DNA of 38,895 bases, from the IMG/VR virus record IMGVR_UViG_3300032212_000067, positions 1 to 38,895 of that record; one strand, 5' to 3'. This document shows positions 14,272 through 38,895 of this stretch, one piece after another. This DNA comes from a virus. Its lineage: Duplodnaviria; Caudoviricetes. The first letter of the stretch is position 1. Each line of letters begins with the position of its first letter. The notes under the pieces are model-generated. The model searched no databases and was not told where the DNA came from. It was given only the letters and a program-made list of their open reading frames with translations. Both the position numbers and the translations under genes were made by a program.

Positions 14272-15959
14272 AAGAGCCAGTTGTTTTAGAAATGTCTAAA
14301 TACGTTAAGCCTCCTGTTTATGAGCAAATAAATAAGGATTGGGTACTAAACGGTAGAAACAATTCTTTTTGGGATTACATACTTGACAGATATAACGGAA
14401 GCCCTACAAATGCTGCTATTGTTGATGCTTACATTGATAGGGTTTATGGTAAAGGTATTGCTATTGAAAGTGAAGATGTATCTGAGGATGTTTTAAATCA
14501 GATATTGAAAATACTAACACCTAAAGAGGCTAGGAAAGTAGTTTCTGATTATATCATGTTCGGTTCTGCGGTTATGCAGATTCGTTATTCTAAGTCAGAG
14601 GAAACAACAATAGCTAAAGTTGACCACTTAGAACGAAAATATGTAGCTCCTAACAAAATGAACGACAAAGGCGAGGTTGCTTTTTATTGGTTCTGTACAG
14701 ATTGGAGTAAAACAAACACAAATAAACCTAAAAGATTTGATGCTTTTGGAGCTTCAAATAAGAAAACTCAAATAGTCGAGATTAAGCCGTATAAGGCAGG
14801 TAAAGACTATTACGCAGACCCTCCGTATTTATCAGGATTGCAATATGCAGTTTTAGAAGAAGAGATAGCAAACTATAGTGTTAATCACATTATGAACGGT
14901 CTTTCCGCTGGTTACATACTGAATTTTAATGAGGGTGAGCCTGCTGAGGAGATTAAAGAGGAATTAGAAGCTAAGGTTAAGCGTAAAGTATCCGGTAGTA
15001 ATAATGCTGGTAAAGTTATTATATCATTTAACAACAGTAAAGAAACAGCACCAACAGTTGAAGCCCTTCCAACAAATACAAGCCATGAGGAGTGGCAATT
15101 ATGGACGGAGATAGCTAGACAGCAAATAATGGTTGCTCATAGGGTTACATCTCCTATGTTGTTTGGTATTAAAGATAACACGGGCTTAGGAAATAACGCT
15201 AATGAACTAAGAGAATCAACCCTATTACTTCACGAAACAGTTGTAAGACCAAAACAAAACCAGATTACAGAGGTATTTGAAGAAATATTTAAAGTAAACG
15301 GCATTGAAGAGGAATTAAGATTTATACCTCTTGAGGACGAGCAAGAAACAGAAGAATTAGCTAAAGAAAAGTCTGGTCTTGAAATGAACTCTCATTTTTC
15401 TGAAGAATCTAAAGCAGAAGAATTGATTGATTTAGGGGAGGACGAGAATGAGGACGAATGGACTTGTATAATGACTGAGGTTGTTGATTATGACAACGAG
15501 GATATGAAGGATAAGTTCTTGCAATTAGCCTCTACAGGAACAGCAATTCCTAACGCAAAGAGTGAGCAAGATTCTGATTTGTTTAAAGTAAGGTATCAAT
15601 ACGCTCCTTTAGTTGCGGGTAAAGACTCAAGAGATTTTTGTAAGAAGATGGTAAACGCTAAAAAAGTTTATCGTAAAGAGGATATTATAAGAATGGGTAG
15701 TCAATCCGTAAACCCAGGTTTCGGCCCAGGAGGTTCGGATACTTATTCTATATGGTTATACAAAGGAGGGGCTAGATGTTCCCATAAATGGCTTAGAAAA
15801 ACCTATGTAAAAAAAGGAAGAGAAAACGATGTTGATGTAAATAGTCCTTTAGCAGAAGTGATTAGTACAGCAGAGGCTAGGAGAAAAGGAGATAGAACAG
15901 TTAATGCTCCAGAGGTTTCGACGAAGCCAAGGGATATGCCAAATAAGGGTTTTTTATGA
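14268..15959 (+). CDS. portal protein with C-terminal MuF-like extension
   Basis: SPTNAAI...YGKG, SGSNNAGK, IMVAHRVTSPMLFG; acidic linker then SRDFC...KGGARCSHKW. Confidence 0.75.
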   Translation: MKEPVVLEMSKYVKPPVYEQINKDWVLNGRNNSFWDYILDRYNGSPTNAAIVDAYIDRVYGKGIAIESEDVSEDVLNQILKILTPKEARKVVSDYIMFGSAVMQIRYSKSEETTIAKVDHLERKYVAPNKMNDKGEVAFYWFCTDWSKTNTNKPKRFDAFGASNKKTQIVEIKPYKAGKDYYADPPYLSGLQYAVLEEEIANYSVNHIMNGLSAGYILNFNEGEPAEEIKEELEAKVKRKVSGSNNAGKVIISFNNSKETAPTVEALPTNTSHEEWQLWTEIARQQIMVAHRVTSPMLFGIKDNTGLGNNANELRESTLLLHETVVRPKQNQITEVFEEIFKVNGIEEELRFIPLEDEQETEELAKEKSGLEMNSHFSEESKAEELIDLGEDENEDEWTCIMTEVVDYDNEDMKDKFLQLASTGTAIPNAKSEQDSDLFKVRYQYAPLVAGKDSRDFCKKMVNAKKVYRKEDIIRMGSQSVNPGFGPGGSDTYSIWLYKGGARCSHKWLRKTYVKKGRENDVDVNSPLAEVISTAEARRKGDRTVNAPEVSTKPRDMPNKGFL

Positions 15960-16462
15960 AAGAGATTTGGAAAGACGTTGTTGGTTTCGAGAATTGTTAT
16001 GAAGTAAGTAGCAAAGGGGAAATAAGAAGTAAGGACAGATTTGTTAATCATTGGAGGGGCGGAGTAAGATTTTATAAGGGGAAAAATAAAAAATCGCGCA
16101 AAAACAAATATGGATATATGAGATGTAATCTTAAAACAAATGCTGAAAGATTTGATTTTTCTATCCATCAATTGGTTGCAAAAGCTTTTATACCTAATCC
16201 AGAGAATAAAGAGCATGTAAACCATAAGAACGGAATAAAAACAGACAACAGGTTGTCAAACCTTGAGTGGGTTACTCCTCAAGAGAATACCACTCACGCG
16301 GTGTCAAAGAGGTTAATAAAAACTAAGTTAAAGGATTCTGACGCATTGAAAATACATGATTCATTTTTAAGTATTAGAAAGTTAGCCTCATTGTTTGATG
16401 TTAATCCAAAAGTCATATGGAGGATAAAAAACGAAGTTTCATATAAACACCTTTGGAGCTAA
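15956..16462 (+). CDS. NUMOD4-HNH homing endonuclease
   Basis: EIWKDV.GFE..YEVSSKG.IRS (NUMOD4); HQLVAKAF...VNHKNGIKTDNRLSNLEW (HNH). Confidence 0.9.
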   Translation: MKEIWKDVVGFENCYEVSSKGEIRSKDRFVNHWRGGVRFYKGKNKKSRKNKYGYMRCNLKTNAERFDFSIHQLVAKAFIPNPENKEHVNHKNGIKTDNRLSNLEWVTPQENTTHAVSKRLIKTKLKDSDALKIHDSFLSIRKLASLFDVNPKVIWRIKNEVSYKHLWS

Positions 16463-29230: not shown

Positions 29231-29575
29231 ATGAACTTTAAGAACTTATCAGAGAATTTAATAATAGTAATTGTTTCGGCATCATTAGGTGGTGTTATAG
29301 GATATACGGCTTCGACTAAAGCAAATAAGCAAGTAGTAACTCAATTAACGCCTACTATAGAAAAGGCTATTGATAAAGAAACTATAAAGAATGAGATTAA
29401 AAATGAAATTAAAATAGATAAGATTAAAAAATCTGATTCTATAAGAATAGTTTTAGACCCTACTAATAATCAAAAACCAATAAATGTAATTGGGGGTTGT
29501 TTTCACAAAGATAGTAGTGTTGTAGCCAACAAACATCTAACTAGAAAGCAAAAGAAAAGATTAGGTATTAAATAG
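29231..29575 (+). CDS. membrane-anchored protein (spanin-like candidate)
   Basis: N-terminal TM helix; last + strand gene. Confidence 0.45.
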   Translation: MNFKNLSENLIIVIVSASLGGVIGYTASTKANKQVVTQLTPTIEKAIDKETIKNEIKNEIKIDKIKKSDSIRIVLDPTNNQKPINVIGGCFHKDSSVVANKHLTRKQKKRLGIK

Positions 29576-29852
29576 CACTTAAAACACCCCTAGCAATTTT
29601 AACGGCTGCTTCTATTGATTGTTCATTTACACCATCCATAAAGCAAAGCCCATAAGCGGTATTAGAATCACAAATCAAGTCATTTCCCCTTTTGTAGAAA
29701 GTTCCGTCTAGTATTCTGTTATTTACTATGATGTTAAGATTTCCCATTATTCTATTAGTAGTTCTATTACGATACTTACCGAAACAATCAGCCAAAATAT
29801 AAGCCCGTTCTTGTCTTCTCCGTCTTTCATACCATGTCTTCAAAACTATCAT
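29568..29852 (-). CDS. hypothetical protein
   Basis: 94 aa, convergent with the late operon. Confidence 0.5.
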   Translation of the reverse strand: MIVLKTWYERRRRQERAYILADCFGKYRNRTTNRIMGNLNIIVNNRILDGTFYKRGNDLICDSNTAYGLCFMDGVNEQSIEAAVKIARGVLSAI

Positions 29853-29980
29853 TAATCACCTTTTGAATATCAGAAGGGATGTCTACCACTAAACCTATGG
29901 ATTCTTCAAAATTGAAATTAATATCCTTTTTTCCATTCTGAATAAGCCAATCATTAATTATATTGTTCTTATTGTATAAA

Positions 29981-30214
29981 CTAAAATTGAATTATAAAAT
30001 GCTTTCCTATCATCTTTAAATAAGGGTCGTTATTAGCTCTTAATCTAGCCTCCACTCCCTGAGGGCTTATCTTATTTATTTTTGCATATTCAGCCTTTGA
30101 AATGAACTTGTATTTTGTAACTAAAATTTTAGTCATTTCAAGTTCTTCAGTCATTGTAAATCTACCGCTGTCTATTGCTTTCTTGAATCTCTTAATGTTT
30201 TCAGTACTTTCCAT
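29981..30214 (-). CDS. small HTH-like (excisionase/MerR-type) DNA-binding candidate
   Basis: ISKAEYAKINKISPQGVEARLR followed by a beta-wing-like KMIGKHFII. Confidence 0.45.
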   Translation of the reverse strand: MESTENIKRFKKAIDSGRFTMTEELEMTKILVTKYKFISKAEYAKINKISPQGVEARLRANNDPYLKMIGKHFIIQF

Positions 30215-30303
30215 AGGTTTAATTTTGTAAGTAACGATATACCGTAGTTATGTACAAGCGCAATATCTGTACGCACTCAAAACGGTTATTTGCGCCAGTA
30301 CAT

Positions 30304-30711
30304 AACAATGCGTATAAAACATAGCTATGTAAGTGCTTAACCGTTTATTTAGTGCATATCTACCCATAATTAAATTATAAGGTTTGTACTCGTTCCATAA
30401 TATCGGTAACGTCTTGGTCGTTTTGATGCCCTAAAACATCGTCAGTTATAGGCGTGTTGTAAGTTAAAGAACCTTTATACATTACAGCTACTTCCCATAA
30501 GTTTGGGTATCCGTAAGAGCCATTAAATTTAACAACACTTACACCGTAATCATTATCAAAGTCCATTCTTGCTTGCACGCCATTACCTATTGGATGCGAT
30601 TTAAATTCTAAGTCTTTAAAAGTTTTCATTCTATTTTAATTTAATTATTAATTTCTGTTTTTATTCAAAAGTTTGTGCTTCGTAAACGCTACGTTTCATA
30701 CGCTAACCGTT
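30304..30711. repeat. A module enclosing an 84-aa gene
   Basis: AAC-aat-GCGTATAAAACATAGC ... GCTACGTTTCATACGC-taacc-GTT (14/16). Confidence 0.85.
30375..30629 (-). CDS. hypothetical phage protein
   Basis: F.NDYGVSVV...SYG...LWEVAV...TPITDDVLG; inside an A module. Confidence 0.75.
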   Translation of the reverse strand: MKTFKDLEFKSHPIGNGVQARMDFDNDYGVSVVKFNGSYGYPNLWEVAVMYKGSLTYNTPITDDVLGHQNDQDVTDIMERVQTL

Positions 30712-30712
30712 A

Positions 30713-31048
30713 TCAAAAATAATTTACTACTATCCACATCCAAATAAAGTGCATTACTTGGTCTACTACAAAATGACCCCAGGGCAAAGAGTTTTGCTTT
30801 AATTCGGTTTGAAACGAACCCATAGTTTTACACCACCATCCTACAAATGCAGTTCTATCTTGCAACCAATGTTGTACAGCTATCAAAGCTAATTGCAACC
30901 AACTTAATTCAGTCAATAAAAATGGGGTCATATAAAGCAAAACGTGCAGTGTGCATATCCAACTATTTTTCTTCTTTCCAACTGCTTGCCAGTCATTTTG
31001 TAGCAGAAAGTCGCCTATGAAGTGAGCGAGAACGTAAGGTAAATTCAT
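30713..31048 (-). CDS. DUF3307-like membrane protein
   Basis: AHFIGDFLLQ, H, H..QD, DQVMH motifs. Confidence 0.75.
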   Translation of the reverse strand: MNLPYVLAHFIGDFLLQNDWQAVGKKKNSWICTLHVLLYMTPFLLTELSWLQLALIAVQHWLQDRTAFVGWWCKTMGSFQTELKQNSLPWGHFVVDQVMHFIWMWIVVNYF

Positions 31049-31084
31049 CCGTAAATTACATTTGCTAACACCATATAAAATTAA

Positions 31085-31225
31085 TTACTTGGTGTTGGTT
31101 AATTTATTAAGTTTTTGCTCTAAAAAATTTAGATATTTAAAAGTGTTTTCTACAATCTCTTGTCTTTCCCCAGAGCTGGTTGCTTCCCAATAGTTTTTTA
31201 GAGTTAAATTTTTCGGCTTTTTCAT
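31085..31225 (-). CDS. small hypothetical protein (46 aa, not in ORF track)
   Basis: MKKPKNLTLKNYWEATSSGERQEIVENTFKYLNFLEQKLNKLTNTK; fills the loop of A module 31067-31282. Confidence 0.55.
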   Translation of the reverse strand: MKKPKNLTLKNYWEATSSGERQEIVENTFKYLNFLEQKLNKLTNTK

Positions 31226-31389
31226 TGTGTGTTTATTAATGTTTGAGTTTATCTTCCGTAACTAATCTTATATTTTAACGTTAATAGTTAATATTTGGCG
31301 TGTTCGTCGCTGTACTTTCAAACCTTTCGACTAAAACAAGGCGTTTATATTCCTTGTTGCGCTGGTACGATACGCCAAAAACTAACAAT

Positions 31390-32304
31390 AACACCGTATA
31401 TACGTAAAAAAGTAAAAGCCTTTGCGCTCTTCTTTAGCTTGTTTGCGCAAAAAGGTCGCCTTGTCTATTTTCATAGTTCGTTATTAATACTTCAGTTCGT
31501 CTGTTTTTTAAGTTATTACGTTCACCAATTACAATGATATTTAAACCACGTTTTTCTGCTTGTTCAATAATGAATGGTTGATTAAATTCACTTATTGCAA
31601 ATAAACATTTAGATTCTACCAACAAATCAAATAAATCAATACTATCTTGTTCTTTAAAACTATCGCTATAATTATCTTTAGTTTCTAAATAAGGTGGGTC
31701 GCAATAGATTAGTGTTTGTGCTTCTTGGTTTCTGCCATCTTGTATAAATCCTATTTTTTTTACAACTTCTCTAAAATCGCAATTCATTATTTTAACAGAA
31801 CTTAATTTATCAAATGTTAAGTCTATATTATCAATTAAATTTTGTTTTGGATTATCAGTTGTTCCCATTCTTAAACTTCCACCATTACCATGTAAAGTGC
31901 AATTACTAATAAACAAGAATCTTATTGCTTTTAAAATATTGTCTTGTTCTTGATTTTCCTTCCAGTAAGTTAAAATTTGTTGGTCTAAAGGTGTTTTTAT
32001 AAACTTCTCAACTAATTCGTTCTTATTGTTTTTTACTGTTAGCCATAAATTAAAAACATCAGAATCTAAATCATTTAGAAAGTTATATTTAACCATTGGC
32101 TTATTAAAGAACATTCCACCTGCACCAAAAAAAGGCTCAATATAAATTTTATGTGGAGGAAAATGCTTTTGTATTTCCTTTGCAATTTTCTTCTTGTTTC
32201 CTAATCTTCTTAAAATCATATTTTCTTACTGTTATAAATATTTGGGTTTTGCAAACCCATTGCCATCTTCTTTTTTTACTTTTCTACGTATATACGAATA
32301 CGTT
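31390..32304. repeat. A module enclosing the adenine methyltransferase
   Basis: GTATATACGTAAAAAAGTAAAA / TTTTACTTTTCTACGTATATAC (21/22) about 900 bp apart. Confidence 0.9.
31434..32219 (-). CDS. DNA adenine methyltransferase (Dam/D12 class)
   Basis: GNK, YIEPFFGAGG, NDLD, YCDPPY, EVLITNY. Confidence 0.92.
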   Translation of the reverse strand: MILRRLGNKKKIAKEIQKHFPPHKIYIEPFFGAGGMFFNKPMVKYNFLNDLDSDVFNLWLTVKNNKNELVEKFIKTPLDQQILTYWKENQEQDNILKAIRFLFISNCTLHGNGGSLRMGTTDNPKQNLIDNIDLTFDKLSSVKIMNCDFREVVKKIGFIQDGRNQEAQTLIYCDPPYLETKDNYSDSFKEQDSIDLFDLLVESKCLFAISEFNQPFIIEQAEKRGLNIIVIGERNNLKNRRTEVLITNYENRQGDLFAQTS

Positions 32305-32441
32305 ATGTGTAATGGTGGTTTAAGTTTGTTGCAGTTCGTTTCACAATCCTCATTGCCAACGTATTTTCGCTAGACTAGACTAGTGCATTAAAACCACCAC
32401 TACAAGCGCAAAAAAGCGCACATAACAAAGTGTATAATTAA

Positions 32442-32726
32442 TTAAAAAAGGTCTGTGATTACTCTATCAACAGAAGGTTTTAATAATTTAAACATTTCAG
32501 CCTTATTTGGGTCAACGTCTTTTTCCTCTACTGTAAACCAGAACAAAACCGCTAATGTTATTCCTACTTTGTCCGCAATTTTTTCTAAAACTTCGGTACT
32601 TGGTTTTTTCTTGTTATTTTCAATTCCAGATAAATAACTTTGTGTTATTCCTACAAGTTCACAAAATTGCTTTTGGTTTAAGCCTTTGTTCTTTCTTACT
32701 GTTTTTACTGCTTTTCCTATGTTCAT
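32442..32726 (-). CDS. XRE-family HTH regulator
   Basis: IGKAVKTVRKNKGLNQKQFCELVGITQSYLSGIENNKKKPS. Confidence 0.9.
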   Translation of the reverse strand: MNIGKAVKTVRKNKGLNQKQFCELVGITQSYLSGIENNKKKPSTEVLEKIADKVGITLAVLFWFTVEEKDVDPNKAEMFKLLKPSVDRVITDLF

Positions 32727-32752
32727 TATATAAAAATGTTTAAATTATTAAC

Positions 32753-32783
32753 CAAAGGTAATATATTATTTCCAATGGCACAA
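32753..32783 (-). promoter_or_regulatory. Bacteroidota housekeeping-type promoter for the XRE gene
   Basis: - strand TTG (32783-32781), N20, TACCTTTG (32760-32753). Confidence 0.6.
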
Positions 32784-32993
32784 GTTTTAACCCATTTTTT
32801 TAACTAATCATACACAACAACGTTCACGGGCATAACCTCAGCACGGCAACCTCAACTCACTAACGTTCGACTTCGGTAGCCTTAGCTTCACATACGAGAA
32901 ACAAAACTACTTTCATCCGTTTTCCTTATTTCTCTAATGCCCGTGAACGAAGCGCAGATACAGAAAAAAGGGGCGAGCAATGCTACGCATTGA

Positions 32994-33623
32994 CTAAAAA
33001 TCAACTAACTCATACTGTAAAATAAGTTCCTTTATAACTCTATCAACTTTCTGACAATTATCAGTTATTTGAAACATCGCAGGCTCATTGTAAAGGTTGT
33101 CAACCGTAAATGGAACACCTAAAACCTCACTAGAGTCTTTTTCAAATCCTCTCTCTTCAACAATCCAAATAGAACCTTTATCACAACTCATAGTATGAAA
33201 GTCGAAAGTTCCTAAGTGAAGTTTAGAGCCGACAGGTAGCCTACATTCTTTCGCCTTTACCTCAACTTCCTTGACGTAATTCAAGCCATTACCACCATTT
33301 AAAACACTCTTGTAATTAAACAATGACATAATTAACCCACCACTATACAAAGCGTTTGAATCTGAATTTGTTTCAGCGGTATGATGTGTAATATTTCCTT
33401 TTAACGTAGTTATAGTTACGGGGTATCTATGAGTATGGTACTGCACATCAAAAGGCTTTAATTTCTTGTGAGCAATAAAAATCCTTGTCAATTTGCCAAA
33501 CTCTGTACCATCTATTACTAAAGAAAAAACGCCTTTTGCATGAACATTTCTCATTGAAAATTTTAGGCTTTCGTTGTTTGGCTTATTCATCTTTTCCAAG
33601 ATGGTTTTTAAAAATTCTTTCAT
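32994..33623 (-). CDS. hypothetical protein, possible cupin fold
   Basis: YHTHRY...LKG...FHTM...WIVEE pattern. Confidence 0.6.
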   Translation of the reverse strand: MKEFLKTILEKMNKPNNESLKFSMRNVHAKGVFSLVIDGTEFGKLTRIFIAHKKLKPFDVQYHTHRYPVTITTLKGNITHHTAETNSDSNALYSGGLIMSLFNYKSVLNGGNGLNYVKEVEVKAKECRLPVGSKLHLGTFDFHTMSCDKGSIWIVEERGFEKDSSEVLGVPFTVDNLYNEPAMFQITDNCQKVDRVIKELILQYELVDF

Positions 33624-33829
33624 AATCAGTATTTAAGTGAGCATACTTGCCCGTTTAGTTTCTAATTGTATGTGCGTTACGACCCGTGAACACTAGATAT
33701 TTTTCCATTGCCTACGGCAAGCCCCTTTTTTCTGTCTGTCGCCTTTCGTACTTTCCGCAATACAAATGAATTTGATTGCTCTCGTACACGGCAACAGAAC
33801 ATATCTGCGCTTCGTTGTAAGTAATAAAA

Positions 33830-34132
33830 TCACTTTACTACTTTTATTTTTATAACATTGGTAAACATTTCATTTACTTGTTCAATATCATTCACCTTTA
33901 CTATTTTGGTTTCTTTAGTGCTATAATCGTCTAATAGTGCGTGTCCGCTATCGTGCCATTTTAAGTAAGTAACAGAAACAGTGATTTTACTACTCACAAC
34001 ACTGTATATACTTAATTGCTTTAATAGATAATCTACAAACTCATCGCTATAAGTACCGCTTGGTAACATTTGCCCATTCCCATCATAAATGCTATTTCCT
34101 GTTTCTAATTCGTATTTGTGTTTAAAGTCCAT
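33830..34132 (-). CDS. chimeric A/B-module protein
   Basis: Crosses junction 33998-34000 (LSIYS-V-VSS). Confidence 0.7.
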   Translation of the reverse strand: MDFKHKYELETGNSIYDGNGQMLPSGTYSDEFVDYLLKQLSIYSVVSSKITVSVTYLKWHDSGHALLDDYSTKETKIVKVNDIEQVNEMFTNVIKIKVVK

Positions 34133-34292
34133 TACTGTCTATTTAATTTATTACTAATTTCACGCAACTAAGCATATACTTTAACGTTGTAGTTAACCCT
34201 TCGGGTCGGCTGAAAAGCCTTAACCACAACACTGTATAACACCCATACTAAAGGTAGTTGCCTAATCGATGTTAGGTGCTTATCATCAATAA

Positions 34293-34613
34293 TTAAACAT
34301 TTTTTGCCAACGCTCTTTTAAACTCTCTCATTAATTGTCGCCATTCATTTAATTTTTCATCATCTGCTTTATCAAAGTTTTTTATATCATTTTCATATTT
34401 CCATTCCAGACCAGTCAGTGCATCTTCAAAGGCGTTTAAGAAGTCTTTAGAATAAGCAATCAATATTGCATTATGATACGCTTCTACTTCACCGCCAACA
34501 CCAGGCCATACAGTTGTATTGCACACTGTAGCATTTTCGTTTCCTATTCCATATTGCTTCATAGGTCTTCTACTTACAATATTCCATTTGCCTTTAGTTC
34601 CTTTAAATTCCAT
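34293..34613 (-). CDS. hypothetical phage protein
   Basis: MEFKGTKGKW...NAILIA motif; inside A module 34228-34697. Confidence 0.75.
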   Translation of the reverse strand: MEFKGTKGKWNIVSRRPMKQYGIGNENATVCNTTVWPGVGGEVEAYHNAILIAYSKDFLNAFEDALTGLEWKYENDIKNFDKADDEKLNEWRQLMREFKRALAKNV

Positions 34614-34707
34614 CGCTTAAAATGTTTAATTATTTAGATTCGTTTTTTAATTTGAAAGTCGTTTTGTGTTTGCCGTACGGGTGTTATACTAAACGTTGTG
34701 TGTAATA

Positions 34708-34917
34708 CTAACAACTACCATATCTAAAACTCCCAAATCCTTCACCATCGTATTCTTCATCTATAAAGAATCCAAGTTTATCAAGTTCTTCAATATCTTC
34801 CTTGCTTACTAACTCAGGGTTTATGTCTACATAAAAGTAGTCGTGTTCACAATGGCTTGGATTTCTTGGATTGCCATATTTTAAAAGGATTTGTAATGCT
34901 TTTATTAAATCTTCCAT
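34708..34917 (-). CDS. hypothetical protein
   Basis: Likely start MEDLIKALQILLKYGN at 34917; PSHCEHD; frame is open back to the junction GTT at 34959. Confidence 0.7.
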   Translation of the reverse strand: MEDLIKALQILLKYGNPRNPSHCEHDYFYVDINPELVSKEDIEELDKLGFFIDEEYDGEGFGSFRYGSC

Positions 34918-34956
34918 CTTTCTATTTAGTTTGCGGCTTAATACCGTACTACACAC

Positions 34957-35044
34957 AACAATGTATATAGTTTATAAGCCTAATTAATATTCGTTTTTAA
35001 TTGTAAATTTCTGCTATGGCTTACAAAACCATATACTCAACGTT
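34957..35044. repeat. empty 88-bp attC-sized A module
   Basis: AAC-aat-GTATATAGTTTATAAGCC ... GGCTTACAAAACCATATAC-tcaac-GTT. Confidence 0.8.
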
Positions 35045-35054
35045 GTAGATAATA

Positions 35055-35342
35055 TTACTTTTTATTCATTTCTTCTTGTAGTTTTTTACCAATTTCTTGC
35101 AACCTTTCAACTCTTTGTTTATCCCAAAGTAATAGCCTAACATTTGTTTTTTTACCGTTTACATAAGTATCTACATATCCTTTATCATCTACTTCACCAC
35201 AAGTAATACTATCAACAACAAAAGGTATAGTGCATTGCTCTATCTCGTTTATCAAGTCTTGCTTGTCGTGCCAAGTACTTATATGGTCTTGGTCGTTATC
35301 AAACCGCCAATATTGGTTTATCAAATTAATTATTTTTCTCAT
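35055..35342 (-). CDS. chimeric A/B-module protein
   Basis: Crosses junction 35217-35219 (CTIPF-V-VDS). Confidence 0.7.
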   Translation of the reverse strand: MRKIINLINQYWRFDNDQDHISTWHDKQDLINEIEQCTIPFVVDSITCGEVDDKGYVDTYVNGKKTNVRLLLWDKQRVERLQEIGKKLQEEMNKK

Positions 35343-35399
35343 CAGTATATATTTATTAAAATCTGTTCTTAATTCCGCAACACACCATACCTAAACACG

Positions 35400-35912
35400 T
35401 TATATGCAATTATTTAAAATTGCCACCGCACCGTCAACCATATTGTCAGTTAATCCTATTTCGCTGTTTGTATTAAGGTAGTGGGCTTTTTGTTCTAATA
35501 ACATATCAGTATCATCATCAAGTATCACGTAAGTAAAATCCTTTCCCAGCTCTTTTCTTTCCCAATTCTTTCCGTTGTCAGAATGTATGTGCGTATCTAT
35601 CCATTGTTTTATCTCAACACCTCTTGGTATAGATAGGTGTATTCCTGTTCCTTTTTCAAGGTATTGATAGGCTCTAATTGTTACGCCTATCAAGCTATCA
35701 TTATACAAGAAACCTTCATTTTTCATATGTTCTTTAGTCCTTTCTAAAGTCGCATATCGCCAAGAAGAAGATAAAACAATTTTAGCCTGTGTTTGGTCAA
35801 GTATTTTACCAAGTAACTTTTGTTTCTCATCAGACAAAGCCCACAATCCATCTTTTAAACAGCTCGGCACTGCTAAAACGCCATCTATGTCTAAGAATAT
35901 AATTTTTTCCAT
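35400..35912 (-). CDS. HAD-domain phosphatase (Swiss Army Knife RNA-repair-like HAD family)
   Basis: FLDIDGVL, IVLSSSWR, RGVEIKQW, YVILDDD; likely start ATG 35912. Confidence 0.85.
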   Translation of the reverse strand: MEKIIFLDIDGVLAVPSCLKDGLWALSDEKQKLLGKILDQTQAKIVLSSSWRYATLERTKEHMKNEGFLYNDSLIGVTIRAYQYLEKGTGIHLSIPRGVEIKQWIDTHIHSDNGKNWERKELGKDFTYVILDDDTDMLLEQKAHYLNTNSEIGLTDNMVDGAVAILNNCI

Positions 35913-35990
35913 CGCTAAAATTTTAAATAACAGTTCGCTTCGCCATATAACAACGGCTAAATCAGCATTGAAAAGCAGTTTAGCCAAACG

Positions 35991-36287
35991 TTAGTGTGCA
36001 TAGTCTTTACATTCTATTGGCATATCCAGTTCAGCGGTGTTTGTTATTCCATCCCAATGGTTCATGCTACACCAAAATTCTGGGTATGGTTGGTCATGTT
36101 GCGGGCTTTCATAGTGCATATTTTTACATTTTCCGCAACTACGCACACTAACACTATCTATAGCTAATTGCGCTTCGAGGTCGTTTATTAACTCTAGGGT
36201 TTTAGTTATTAGAATTTCTTCACGTTCTGTTGTGAATTTTGGTTTTTCAGTTCCAGTTAATTTGTATAATAATTCTTCTCTTGTCAT
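35991..36287 (-). CDS. chimeric A/B-module protein, Cys-rich C-terminus
   Basis: Crosses junction 36150-36152 (LAIDS-V-SVRSCGKC). Confidence 0.7.
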   Translation of the reverse strand: MTREELLYKLTGTEKPKFTTEREEILITKTLELINDLEAQLAIDSVSVRSCGKCKNMHYESPQHDQPYPEFWCSMNHWDGITNTAELDMPIECKDYAH

Positions 36288-36422
36288 AATTTATTAAGGT
36301 TTGTGATTAATCGGCAACTAGCCATAGATTTAACGTTGTAGGTAATGGCGCATACGTGTTACTCACTCATACGCTTTAGGTGCGCCACTACCCACAACAC
36401 GGTATATAATTAAAAAATAATA

Positions 36423-36614
36423 CTACTCTTCGTCAAGTATTACAACTTCATCACGCGAAAGAACTTCACCGTTTGGCTCTTCCATAAAGTTTATTTCCTG
36501 TTTGCTAACGGAGTTTAAAAGTCCGTATGTAAATTCAGTTTTTCGCTCTGCCATAAATACTTCCATATTTTCAGGGTATTGGCTTAATGTTTCTATCAGT
36601 TTTTTTACTGTCAT
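36423..36614 (-). CDS. hypothetical phage protein
   Basis: MTVKKLIETLSQYPENMEV N-terminus; inside an A module. Confidence 0.75.
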   Translation of the reverse strand: MTVKKLIETLSQYPENMEVFMAERKTEFTYGLLNSVSKQEINFMEEPNGEVLSRDEVVILDEE

Positions 36615-36678
36615 AATTTTAGTTTTTTAATCCGTATTATTTTCAAATCATATACCATCAACGTTGTAGTGCATTGTG

Positions 36679-36942
36679 CTAATAGCTAAAGTATTTACCG
36701 CATTTGCATTTTATTTGCCTGTCTGTGATGAATGTCAAATCTTTAAATTTATGTTCGCACAACGTACCCTTCGGCACAACAACAACGGGTATATCCAAAT
36801 TATTTACTTGCTCTTGTGCAAACGATACAATTTTGTGAGCCGTGTCAAATCTATTTCCAATAATTTTCCCTTCAATAATTTCTAAATTATCGTCTAATAT
36901 AGATAAAGCTTTATTAAATAGAATTTCGTATTCAGTAGTCAT
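36679..36942 (-). CDS. chimeric A/B-module protein (MTTEY N-terminus, variant 1)
   Basis: Crosses junction 36781-36783; C-terminus CEH...CKCG. Confidence 0.75.
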   Translation of the reverse strand: MTTEYEILFNKALSILDDNLEIIEGKIIGNRFDTAHKIVSFAQEQVNNLDIPVVVVPKGTLCEHKFKDLTFITDRQIKCKCGKYFSY

Positions 36943-36992
36943 AATCTTGTATTTTTTAATCCGTAAATAATCAGTACATACCCTCGAACGTT
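36781..36992. repeat. 212-bp A module, copy 1
   Basis: Direct repeat of 38517-38728, 15 differences by manual count. Confidence 0.95.
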
Positions 36993-37004
36993 GTAGAACA
37001 TAAC

Positions 37005-37241
37005 TTACTCAGTTTGTTTTGCATCCCAACAAGGGTAGCATAATCCAACATTTAAGTCGTGTGTCTTTCTTCCGCATTTACAGGTAAGTGACGGCTCTAC
37101 AACATTGGGTATAGATAATACCTCAAGTTCGTACATTATAATAGCGTTTTCATCTATTGCTCTTATCTTATCTTCAATCTGTTTTCTTTGCTCAAGAAGT
37201 TGTTTTACTTCTTTATCTTCTGTAATATTTGTCCAGTCCAT
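37005..37241 (-). CDS. chimeric A/B-module protein, Cys-rich C-terminus
   Basis: Crosses junction 37101-37103 (LSIPN-V-VEP); CKCG...CYPC. Confidence 0.7.
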   Translation of the reverse strand: MDWTNITEDKEVKQLLEQRKQIEDKIRAIDENAIIMYELEVLSIPNVVEPSLTCKCGRKTHDLNVGLCYPCWDAKQTE

Positions 37242-37291
37242 TTTTATAAAGTTTCAGGTCAATAAATCGGTACTATCCATACCCTTGTCCG

Positions 37292-37936
37292 TTAGCCACA
37301 AGCTGATACGTCCTCGCTTTTAATGAAGTTTCCCCATTGTTCAGCCATAGCTTTTGCAATTCCGCTAAAAGTTTTACTGCTTTCCTTTTGGCTTATGTTC
37401 TTAAATTGGTATTTCTGTCCTCGTTTCTTACCACCTGTATTACTTGGTAAGTACGGCTTATAGTCGCTTACTATTTCGGTTGGGCTTAATAGTGGTAAAT
37501 TTTTAAGCCACAGCAGGGTTCTTTTGCTATAAGGGTGTCCGTACTCGTAGGGTTGTACCGCTTGGCTTTGTTTAGGTAATCCAACTACTTTTAATGGTGT
37601 TGGGTTCTCAACCGCAATATAAGGTATTGGAGCGTTCAATAGTTTCATAAACAAATCCTTCGCTTCCATTGCTTTATTAAATCGTTCTTGGCTTAAATTC
37701 CCTGCTGTTGGGTACATCCATCTTGCACCTGCTCTACTAATATAAGTACAAGGTGGGTGTGCTATCATTAAGTCATATTTACCACTATACGCTTCCGCAA
37801 CTGCATCGCCCTTTATATGCCATTCAGGTTTATCGCCACTACATTCTTGTATGTCACAGCTATAAGCCTCAAATCCTAATTCTCGGAAAGCCTTACAAAC
37901 TTCTTGGCTCTCTTCACAAGCTATTAATATTTTCAT
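37292..37936 (-). CDS. phage C5 DNA cytosine methyltransferase-like protein
   Basis: ILIACEES, DLMIAHPPC, VENP, K.TLLWL, GIAKAMAEQWG. Confidence 0.75.
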   Translation of the reverse strand: MKILIACEESQEVCKAFRELGFEAYSCDIQECSGDKPEWHIKGDAVAEAYSGKYDLMIAHPPCTYISRAGARWMYPTAGNLSQERFNKAMEAKDLFMKLLNAPIPYIAVENPTPLKVVGLPKQSQAVQPYEYGHPYSKRTLLWLKNLPLLSPTEIVSDYKPYLPSNTGGKKRGQKYQFKNISQKESSKTFSGIAKAMAEQWGNFIKSEDVSACG

Positions 37937-38122
37937 TTTATTTAATTTTAGTTCTTAATTTACCGCAGCCAGATGGCTAACAACGGCTATATGTCCATAT
38001 TCCTATCGTCATACGGCACATAACCAAACCGTTGTAAAACATTAAAACGATTTTACAACACGCTATATAAATAATGCTTGGTTTCGTGCTATAATTAAAG
38101 TTTAATGCTTTTAATTCCATAA

Positions 38123-38326
38123 TTAATATTTAAAAAATTGGTATTTAGGTTTAAATTTAAAAATACTTTCTGCTGTTCTTATTATCCAAACTCGGTAATA
38201 CCTTAGTGCTTCTTCTTTAGTCTTTCCGTTTGGGTCTAAGTAGTTTCCAGTATCAACATAATATTTACCATTCCTTTCAAAGAACTTTATTTTTCGTCTG
38301 CATTTTTTAAGAAGTTTCGTTTTCAT
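38123..38326 (-). CDS. small basic hypothetical protein
   Basis: 67 aa inside A module 38057-38406. Confidence 0.65.
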   Translation of the reverse strand: MKTKLLKKCRRKIKFFERNGKYYVDTGNYLDPNGKTKEEALRYYRVWIIRTAESIFKFKPKYQFFKY

Positions 38327-38414
38327 TTTTAAATATTAATTATTAGTTCTGTACTTAATTCAAAGGTTAGTACATTTTATCCGCACTATTCATATAGCAA
38401 TTCGTTAGTAACAA

Positions 38415-38678
38415 TTATAATTGCTGTCCTATTTTATCGTGAAAGCAGTTGCAATTTTTACACCTAAATATTGGCTCTTTAACTATGTTAGTGCTGTTGC
38501 AATTAGAACAATTACTAACAACGGGTATATCCAAATTATTTACTTGCTCTTGTGCAAACGAAATAATTTTATGAGCTGTTGCAAATCTATTTCCGATAAT
38601 TTTTCCACCTATAATTTCTAAGTTTTCATCTAATATAGATAGAGCTTTATTAAATAGAATTTCGTATTCAGTAGTCAT
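38415..38678 (-). CDS. chimeric A/B-module protein (MTTEY N-terminus, variant 2)
   Basis: Crosses junction 38517-38519; C-terminus CSNC...CKNC. Confidence 0.75.
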   Translation of the reverse strand: MTTEYEILFNKALSILDENLEIIGGKIIGNRFATAHKIISFAQEQVNNLDIPVVSNCSNCNSTNIVKEPIFRCKNCNCFHDKIGQQL

Positions 38679-38728
38679 AATCTTGTATTTTTTAATCCGT
38701 AAATAATCAGTACATACCCTCGAACGTT
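38517..38728. repeat. 212-bp A module, copy 2
   Basis: Direct repeat of 36781-36992. Confidence 0.95.
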
Positions 38729-38809
38729 ACCTGCCATAATAAATAAAAAAATAGGCGCTCACTCGGTCGTCTGTGTAGGTGCAAAACGTTTCATACACTC
38801 GTGTATAAA

Positions 38810-38895
38810 TCATATTACACTTAACCAATTATCGTATATCCTACTTGCTATCTGCGCTATCATTACAGGTGGCACACTCATTCCAATCATATATG
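38810..38895 (-). CDS. C-terminal fragment of a C5 cytosine methyltransferase (cut by window edge)
   Basis: YMIGMSVPPVMIAQIASRIYDNWLSVI-stop resembles motif X (GNAVPP). Confidence 0.7.
   Translation of the reverse strand, partial: YMIGMSVPPVMIAQIASRIYDNWLSVI

What the first reader, a model, noticed from the sequence alone, without database searches (positions are those of the whole stretch)
33830..38678. In-frame combinatorial fusion of protein halves across module junctions
Seen: six ORFs (33830-34132, 35055-35342, 35991-36287, 36679-36942, 37005-37241, 38415-38678) start inside an A loop, read through the left arm (LSIYSV, CTIPFV, LAIDSV, LDIPVV, LSIPNV, LDIPVV) and end in the adjacent B module. 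In all six the junction GTT is an in-frame Val codon, checked from coordinates. N-halves are short and look helical; four of six C-halves are Cys-rich, Zn-ribbon-like. Inference: a fixed frame lets any N-module join any C-module, giving domain-level shuffling that could diversify host-takeover or anti-defence effectors.
Basis: partly seen in the sequence, partly recalled or inferred. Interest (0 to 1): 0.9.

Follow-up and report, generated by a model that had tools for sequence, protein, structure and literature searches.

The report
Phage proteins built from swappable halves
Six small genes of this phage each start inside a DNA segment predicted to fold as a hairpin and finish in the next segment, and relatives carry the same front and back halves in many other in-frame pairings, which is likely produced by an integron-like recombinase and would be a natural way of mixing protein parts, although what the proteins do is unknown.

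Summary
Confirmed. On the minus strand this Flavobacteriia-type phage has 14 attC-like hairpin modules (A) alternating with modules whose own ends are complementary (B). Six ORFs start in an A loop, cross GTT as an in-frame Val and stop at the far end of B. In related viral arrays 60 of 68 such ORFs use this frame, 7 a second register, 1 the third. The halves really are reassorted: one A is duplicated in the window with two unrelated tails; none of 38 and none of 11 database homologs of two window proteins keeps both halves; 0 of 30 N-homolog pairs share a tail. Both halves show coding selection. 'Any N with any C' is too strong: most B modules are whole genes, and productive joins are filtered (45 of 52 versus 69 of 285). 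No evidence for an effector role. Likely mechanism: a short XerA-like recombinase lacking the IntI insertion, supplied in trans, crossing over in the AAC/GTT core; the GTT-side exchange is inferred. The scan noted this system before in at least six other genomes; I found no paper describing it.

The parts
33830..34132 (-). Fusion ORF 1, 100 aa: 44-aa N-half in A, 56-aa beta-beta-alpha-beta C-domain in B; junction GTT at 34000-33998
   Evidence: halves found separately in 8 and 30 other proteins; models
33998..34189 (-). A hairpin module holding N-half 1
   Evidence: a contig of run X2 matches 33998-34178 and then goes on unlike the window
33814..34000 (-). B module holding C-half 1 (GTTGTGAGTAGT ... 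ATTACTTACAAC)
   Evidence: orthologous B with the same end behind an unrelated N-half in L461
35055..35342 (-). Fusion ORF 2, 95 aa (41 + 54); junction GTT at 35219; A 35217-35402, B 35042-35219
   Evidence: 5 N-only and 6 C-only homologs
35991..36287 (-). Fusion ORF 3, 98 aa (45 + 53, Cys-rich tail); junction GTT at 36152; A 36150-36338, B 35990-36152
   Evidence: tail found with an unrelated N-half in P0004
36679..36942 (-). Fusion ORF 4, 87 aa (53 + 34); junction GTT at 36783; A 36781-36993, B 36663-36783
   Evidence: A is a 93% copy of 38517-38728
37005..37241 (-). Fusion ORF 5, 78 aa (46 + 32, Cys-rich tail); junction GTT at 37103; A 37101-37294, B 36990-37103
   Evidence: no phage homolog by tblastn
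38415..38678 (-). Fusion ORF 6, 87 aa (53 + 34); junction GTT at 38519; A 38517-38729, B 38404-38519; same N-half as ORF 4, unrelated tail
30304..38729 (-). Whole array: 14 detected A hairpins (YAAC, 5-7 nt, stem, loop, stem, 3 nt, GTTR) plus degenerate ones at 35993-35951 and 33817-33691; other A loops or B modules hold whole genes (two DNA methyltransferases, HAD domain, DUF3307)
30235..30258 (-). attI-like terminal site: B end, YAAC, 4-nt spacer, GTATATCG, with no hairpin partner; no recombinase gene follows
   Evidence: same 4-nt form ends 15 of 36 viral arrays examined

Best explanation
The array is an integron-like cassette system in which two kinds of DNA module alternate and are exchanged separately, and because one exchange point (the GTT core) lies inside genes at a nearly constant codon position, front halves and back halves of small proteins are found in many combinations; the exchanges are likely made by a short XerA-like tyrosine recombinase supplied in trans. 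Shown: module anatomy, frame bias, reassorted halves, coding selection on both halves, breakpoints at the AAC core and at or just after the GTT core. Inferred: (1) the coding strand folds into the attC-like hairpin and is cut at AA|C, which moves an A plus its downstream B as one cassette and keeps the fusion intact; (2) less often the opposite strand is recombined at its own AA|C, which is G|TT on the coding strand, and this joins an A to a new B; the stems mostly lack an extrahelical base, the feature that enforces one-strand use in integrons; (3) the 3-nt spacer plus GTT keeps the register, and selection keeps joins that give a full-length protein; (4) the A loop supplies the translation start and a helical N-half, the B module a small independently folding domain.
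For: Anatomy: B ends pair with each other (mean 8.9 of 12 in viruses, 10.2 in chromosomes) better than across a hairpin (6.5, 6.3). Folding strand: with a detector that gives no credit for wobble, stems show 474 G.T against 19 A.C juxtapositions on the long-spacer strand; that strand carries the genes in phages (245 of 253 B ORFs) and the opposite strand carries them in Flavobacteriales chromosomal arrays (121 of 128). Breakpoints: among 116 A-homolog pairs 109 differ on both sides, 6 keep only the downstream B, 0 only the upstream B, 1 both; identity falls to background right before AAC, stays 0.78-0.86 in the spacer before GTT (random 0.3) and drops after GTT; in 30 coding pairs 17 have unrelated B arms (0-2 of 6 matches). 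Reassortment: in-window duplicate, present in the assembly graph at double depth (run X1, possibly the source sample); as in the summary; four N-halves nearly identical to each other (P0047, P0048, P0052, P0055) carry four different tails. Coding selection: N-half duplicate 8 synonymous to 7 non-synonymous changes, X2 variant 6 to 3; tail pair L061/L395 8 to 5 with one second-position change, with identical B arms and unrelated A modules; the open frame from GTT ends at the B end in 37 of 58 cases in frame 0 against 4 and 1. Recombinase: a 266-aa PF00589 + PF13495 protein has at least one hairpin upstream on the same strand in 33 of 34 loci and none downstream; it is closer to archaeal XerA than to IntI4 and has about 35 residues where IntI4 has about 83. 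No bulge in the first 13 stem pairs in 12 of 13 window and 343 of 398 viral hairpins; deleting such bases lets the top strand recombine in IntI1 assays (PMC5027507, passages).
Against: No recombination was observed directly; contigs cannot show excised circles. The record has no tyrosine recombinase, though a 49.8-kb contig with the same proteins exists that I could not read. The strong G.T bias argues that the non-coding strand folds worse, which counts against step 2. Linkage after GTT is only partly lost: 9 of 30 coding pairs and 39 of 65 non-coding pairs keep a related B arm (4 or more of 6; random about 11%) while the body differs, for example L066/L086, so a second process replaces cargo inside B. 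Some pairs are inherited together: L324/L343, L019/L051, L122/L359, and P0020/P0024 share both families. Exact duplicates were removed before the 0-of-30 count, and the library merges relatives above 50% identity, which hides close pair-keeping homologs. No RNA or protein evidence of expression.
Confidence: 0.62

Rival explanations
1. Same DNA system, but the fusion is only a way to be translated: the A loop gives a start codon and a dispensable leader, and function lies in one half alone. New pairings would then change expression, stability or location, not activity. This does not exclude the best explanation's DNA mechanism.
For: The tail of ORF 1 occurs as a 51-63-aa protein on its own in 8 of 30 homologs (their DNA context not seen) and folds alone (pLDDT 87); the full model has a weak linker and pTM 0.46. 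A cytosine methyltransferase in L324/L343 hangs on a 14-aa leader from the A loop. N-halves also end right after the arm (P0009; P12002L gp42).
Against: The N-halves of about 45 aa are conserved families under purifying selection, more than a leader needs; coding A modules are nearly always followed by a long open tail (45 of 52), which suggests the joined product matters.
Confidence: 0.45
2. The recombinase cuts only at AA|C, so A plus B is the one mobile cassette; new N/C pairs come from another route, either replacement of the cargo between the two 12-nt arms of B (cassette formation) or microhomology-driven recombination between similar arms by a phage annealing protein.
For: Coding-strand folding bias; downstream B kept in 6 pairs and upstream B in 0; B arms kept with unrelated bodies in about half of non-coding and about a quarter of coding pairs, with similarity fading over 12-18 nt.
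Against: In most coding pairs and in the window's own duplicate identity runs through the spacer to GTT and ends within 3 nt, and orthologous B modules keep both arms while the A changes (L061/L395, window/L461). Crossovers spread along a 20-nt arm would erode identity before GTT, which is not seen.
Confidence: 0.28
3. The tails are accidental read-through into non-coding DNA and the Val frame is a by-product of stop codons in the arm.
For: 7 of 52 coding A modules have tails under 20 aa; tails are short and mostly without family hits.
Against: Arms are often open in the other frames; tails fill their module in frame 0 only, form conserved protein families and change mostly synonymously.
Confidence: 0.03

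Closest known systems
Integron cassette arrays and CALINs, including phage CALINs (Qi et al. 2023, PMC9892861; abstract, section 3.4, passages and P12002L supplement rows seen)
   Same: Hairpin sites with AAC/GTT core, cassettes with complementary ends, G.T-rich folding strand, attI-like end site, tyrosine recombinase next to the array in many relatives. The paper's P12002L_attC1 is a short A hairpin of this family.
   Different: Genes lie on the folding strand; spacer 5-7 versus 3 nt; mostly no extrahelical base; loops up to 900 nt hold genes or gene halves; ORFs cross the core in frame; the recombinase lacks the IntI insertion. attC1 was the one site of six that IntI1 did not recombine; attC2, which did, lies on the opposite strand at the array end and does not have this family's left arm. 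The paper does not mention fusions across sites in the parts I read.
Synthetic attC sites embedded in coding sequence (Nivina et al. 2020, PMC7439510; passages seen)
   Same: An attC-type site is read as a peptide linker between two domains and proposed for module shuffling.
   Different: Engineered, whole site is the linker, uses IntI1; here one arm is the linker, the N-half sits in the loop, and it is natural.
Shufflons (Rci/sfx, PilV C-terminal variants; PMC5430464 and bioRxiv 2024.10.25.620183, search listing and start of abstract only; details recalled)
   Same: A tyrosine recombinase site inside a gene joins one protein part to alternative others in frame.
   Different: Shufflons invert a fixed local set of segments behind one constant N-terminus; here modules are all in one orientation, both halves vary, and the pool is spread over many phage genomes.
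CTXphi attP / Acinetobacter pdif modules (recalled, no call)
   Same: Xer-type enzymes on a folded single strand with unequal spacers (CTXphi); two module types bounded by inverted half-sites (pdif).
   Different: Those use host XerCD and conserved dif arms; here arms vary and a dedicated short recombinase is linked to the arrays. Not tested.

Membership tests
Integron (classical) | IntI integrase with the IntI-specific insertion | tested here: not met
   None in the record. Linked phage enzyme is 266 aa, about 48 residues shorter than IntI4 over that region. A chromosomal array-linked enzyme (L190) scores 196 against TIGR02249, cut-off 265, and passes NF040815.
Integron (classical) | attC hairpin with AAC/GTT core and stabler, G.T-rich bottom strand | tested here: met
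Integron (classical) | Extrahelical bases in the L-box stem | tested here: not met
   No bulge in the first 13 pairs in 12 of 13 window, 343 of 398 viral, 171 of 193 chromosomal hairpins (simple test, bulges further out not scored)
Integron (classical) | Cassette ends complementary (GTTRRRY ... RYYYAAC) | tested here: met
Integron (classical) | Cassette genes on the top (non-folding) strand | tested here: not met
   245 of 253 viral B ORFs on the folding strand; met in chromosomal arrays, 121 of 128
Integron (classical) | attI site at the array head | tested here: inconclusive
   Conserved non-hairpin end site with 4-nt spacer at 30235-30258 and in 15 of 36 arrays; function not tested
Integron (classical) | Sites recombined by an integron integrase | not testable with these tools
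   One family member (P12002L_attC1) failed with IntI1 in PMC9892861
Shufflon | Inverted segments flipped behind one constant N-terminus | tested here: not met
   All hairpins on one strand (14 versus 0; 957 versus 2 over 443 sequences); both halves vary
Shufflon | Recombination site inside a reading frame with kept register | tested here: met
Known structured RNA / Rfam attC families | Match to a covariance model | tested here: not met
   0 matches at E up to 5 in 29500-38895
Host-takeover or anti-defence proteins | Sequence or fold match to a characterised family | tested here: inconclusive
   No PHROG or above-cut-off Pfam hit for six proteins; best Z 4.7 for the ORF 1 tail

The most novel reading that the evidence does not exclude
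Bacteroidota phages share a population-wide, recombinase-driven library of protein halves: helical N-halves act as address or assembly tags and B-encoded domains (often Zn-binding) as payloads, the same enzyme cuts both strands of a nearly symmetric hairpin so that it can either move a whole gene or re-pair its halves, and new pairings give new host-directed activities. This would be a natural domain-shuffling machine, a prokaryotic counterpart of same-phase exon shuffling.
Probability: 0.3. Interest if true: 0.93.

Novelty: new variant of a known kind. Interest (0 to 1): 0.78.

Why it matters
It shows a route by which phages make new small proteins by recombination rather than by point mutation, and it explains a large class of unannotated 'LxIxxVS' hypothetical proteins in Bacteroidota phages as chimeras whose halves should be searched separately. 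It points to an integron-like system in Flavobacteriales chromosomes and phages that standard integron criteria miss (short or non-IntI recombinase, few extrahelical bases). It is testable now: the cultured Polaribacter phage P12002L carries three such fusions (gp37, gp59, gp60), and the 266-aa recombinase can be cloned. It also bears on the open question of how cassettes are made, since cargo is replaced between retained arms.

Tried and rejected
No relatives of the ORF 6 N-half in viral contigs or the 90% protein set beyond the window's own two copies; the metagenome scan with ORF 4 returned only the window's own record. ORF 5 has no tblastn hit in cultured phages; ORF 3 has only weak 30% hits in Vibrio phages, not followed. 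Rfam: nothing. ESM Atlas: no usable hit for the ORF 1 tail. Foldseek and VIA-align on that tail: nothing significant; weak likeness to ribosomal eL20/LX, T7 Gp2, phage p56 and RNAP epsilon at Z 3.3-4.7 is a common small fold and is not counted. The first motif scan was mostly chance matches (at most 1 hairpin per strand in 14 loci); the scan aimed at coding junctions gave 17 loci of which about 5 looked real, and they were not added to the counts. No RNA holder listed. Joints in runs X2 and X3 come from other phages with similar arms and were not taken as excision evidence. Considered and dropped: swap of hairpin heads by a second strand exchange at the L-box side of the spacer (the spacer travels with A, not B); assembly artefact for the duplicate; Maribacter phage Panino region gave no hairpin above threshold. 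Literature searches with no paper describing this system: 0 papers; listings only, none on topic by title or abstract start; subscription journals are not covered.
Full report
Setting. The window is a 38.9-kb virus record with terminase, portal, capsid and tail-like genes on the plus strand and a block of small genes on the minus strand from about 29.5 kb (gene names here are my reading of the translations). Its DNA hits are mostly Flavobacterium, Cellulophaga and Maribacter phages, and the repeat motif occurs mainly in Flavobacteriales chromosomes, so the host is inferred to be a flavobacterium.

Anatomy. On the minus (coding) strand the block is an alternation of two module types. A modules run YAAC, 5-7 nt, a stem arm, a loop, the complementary arm, 3 nt, GTTR. 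My detector finds 14 on the minus strand and none on the plus strand; its earlier version found 13 in the real region and 0-1 in each of 20 shuffles. B modules run from that GTT to the next YAAC and have complementary 12-nt ends. The array ends at 30235-30258 in a non-hairpin site with a 4-nt spacer, a form that ends 15 of 36 viral arrays examined. Five motif scans gave 442 loci, of which those with two or more hairpins yielded 473 viral (window included) and 198 chromosomal unique sites. In chromosomes A is a 120-130-nt non-coding repeat with one gene per B on the opposite strand, next to a 355-399-aa tyrosine recombinase in four loci: a sedentary-integron layout. In phages the genes are on the folding strand (245 of 253), and A loops come in sizes near 45, 85, 120, 190 nt and longer.

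The observation. All six ORFs are as described; GTT is a Val codon in 6 of 6, and each tail ends within 12 nt of the end of its B module. Across viral sites, ORFs with at least 22 residues before and 20 after GTT use frame 0 in 60 of 68, frame 2 in 7, frame 1 in 1; loci picked by the recombinase give 15, 0 and 1. The frame-2 class has its own linker (AINYT-x-x|C) and can use the same N and C families as frame 0 (P0020 versus P0024). Chromosomal A modules show no such bias. Fusions occur in 41 of 115 viral loci with arrays (some loci overlap on one contig) and in cultured phage P12002L (gp37, gp59 with an HNH N-part and a Cys-rich tail, gp60).

Are the halves reassorted? Yes. (a) 36781-36992 and 38517-38728 are 93% identical, bounded exactly by AAC and GTT, with different modules on both sides. 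(b) Of 40 hits to ORF 1 among 50%-identity representatives, one is the query and one 676-aa hit was left out; of the other 38, 8 match only the N-half and 30 only the tail. Eleven of the 30 carry the LxIxx|V linker at the same place, 2 the frame-2 linker, 8 are the tail alone. (c) Of 11 other hits to ORF 2 in the 90% set, 5 share only the N-half, each with a different tail, and 6 share only the tail. (d) The tail of ORF 3 occurs behind an unrelated N-half. (e) In L461 the B module of ORF 1, with the same end, follows another N-half; a contig in run X2 matches the A of ORF 1 up to the T of GTT and then diverges. (f) Among 82 fusions from loci, 0 of 30 N-homolog pairs share a tail and the one tail-homolog pair has different N-halves. 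Limits: exact duplicates were removed first, identity clustering hides close pair-keeping relatives, and some pairs are kept (L324/L343, L122/L359, L019/L051). For ORF 5 and for the tails of ORFs 4 and 6 I found no full homolog.

Are the tails real coding sequence? The frame-0 reading from GTT ends at the B end in 37 of 58 cases after a coding A, against 4 and 1 for the other frames. Tail families are conserved, changes are mostly synonymous, and the ORF 1 tail folds alone as a beta-beta-alpha-beta domain (pLDDT 87). The full protein models as two helices, a weak linker and that domain (pTM 0.46; its alignment mixed N-only and C-only homologs, so it cannot show an interface).

Not any with any. 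Frame 0 stays open for 20 codons after 45 of 52 coding A modules but after only 69 of 285 non-coding ones. Most B modules carry a whole gene whose ATG follows the arm. Random joining would therefore usually give a truncated product; what survives is filtered, by selection or by module class.

Mechanism. G.T pairs outnumber A.C 474 to 19 on the coding strand, so that strand is the equivalent of the integron bottom strand, where cleavage is in AAC (PMC5027507, passages). A cut at AA|C moves A with its downstream B. The data fit: identity of A homologs to upstream DNA is at background immediately before AAC, and no pair keeps only the upstream module. That reaction cannot re-pair halves. Re-pairing needs a crossover at the GTT side. 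In coding pairs identity usually runs through the 3-nt spacer and stops at GTT, which is where recombination of the opposite strand at its own AA|C would cut. The stems mostly lack an extrahelical base, and removing such bases allows top-strand recombination with IntI1. The enzyme linked to these arrays is a 266-aa XerA-like protein without the IntI insertion, and integron integrases retain ancestral two-strand activities (PMC4792948, abstract). This record encodes no such enzyme, so it would act in trans, from the host's chromosomal system, another phage, or the unread part of the genome. Against a single mechanism: a quarter of coding pairs and more than half of non-coding pairs keep the 12-nt B arms with unrelated cargo, so a second process works inside B. 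I put the two-strand recombinase model at about 0.6.

Function. Unknown by homology. The most economical reading is that A supplies translation start plus a helical N-part and B a small domain, often Cys-rich; a 14-aa A-encoded leader on a methyltransferase shows the leader-only end of that range. Whether combinations create new activities is untested.

Comparison and novelty. It works like an integron cassette array but fails three defining tests (IntI insertion, extrahelical bases, gene polarity). The one family member assayed in print, P12002L_attC1, was not recombined by IntI1 (PMC9892861). In-frame domain exchange by a site-specific recombinase is known from shufflons, and attC-as-linker has been engineered (PMC7439510), but I found no paper on natural attC-like hairpins that hold the front half of a gene (searches; open-access library only; bioRxiv supplements not seen). 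Earlier notes of this scan report the same system in other genomes; I took two leads from them (the Qi paper, the attI-like end and short recombinase) and tested them here. Verdict: real, reproducible, a new variant of a known kind; interest 0.78.

Noticed in passing
window 30235-30258 (-): Non-hairpin end site with a 4-nt spacer (attI-like) closes the array; in relatives the short recombinase follows, here a 77-aa ORF (29981-30214) does.
   Followed up: partly
window 31392-32305 (-): An A hairpin with a 913-nt loop holds a whole DNA methyltransferase gene (31434-32219); a second methyltransferase (37292-37936) fills a B module.
   Followed up: partly
window 34230-34205, 36398-36335, 38059-38031, 30306-30247: Empty or near-empty B modules (about 29-64 nt) that are only the two arms, sometimes with an inner palindrome; possible scars of cargo loss or spare acceptor units.
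   Followed up: no
window 32804-32940: Degenerate arm-like sequences upstream of the HTH gene 32442-32726 that the detector did not pair; possibly a decayed module.
   Followed up: no
L178-L201, L246-L248 and other genome-contig loci: Flavobacteriales chromosomes carry long arrays of 120-130-nt repeats with one gene per cassette and a 355-399-aa XerA-like recombinase nearby; about 6200 stored stretches estimated to hold the motif. Looks like an unrecognised sedentary integron class.
   Followed up: partly
L464-L517: A 266-aa phage tyrosine recombinase family sits downstream of hairpin arrays on the same strand in 33 of 34 loci with enough flank.
   Followed up: yes
L463 (P12002L) 40062-40502: HNH endonuclease gp59 is itself a fusion: HNH part in an A loop plus a 30-aa Cys-rich tail in B.
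   Followed up: partly
L066/L086, L062/L075/L110: Near-identical A modules and identical 12-nt B arms enclose unrelated genes, with similarity ending at the arm or at the ATG; a possible trace of how cassettes are made.
   Followed up: partly
window 15956-16462 (+): HNH/NUMOD4-like endonuclease ORF overlapping the end of the portal-like gene (read from the translation only).
   Followed up: no
whole record: The same proteins are on record on a 49,764-nt contig, so about 11 kb of the phage, including the rest of the array, is missing from this record although it is rated complete.
   Followed up: no
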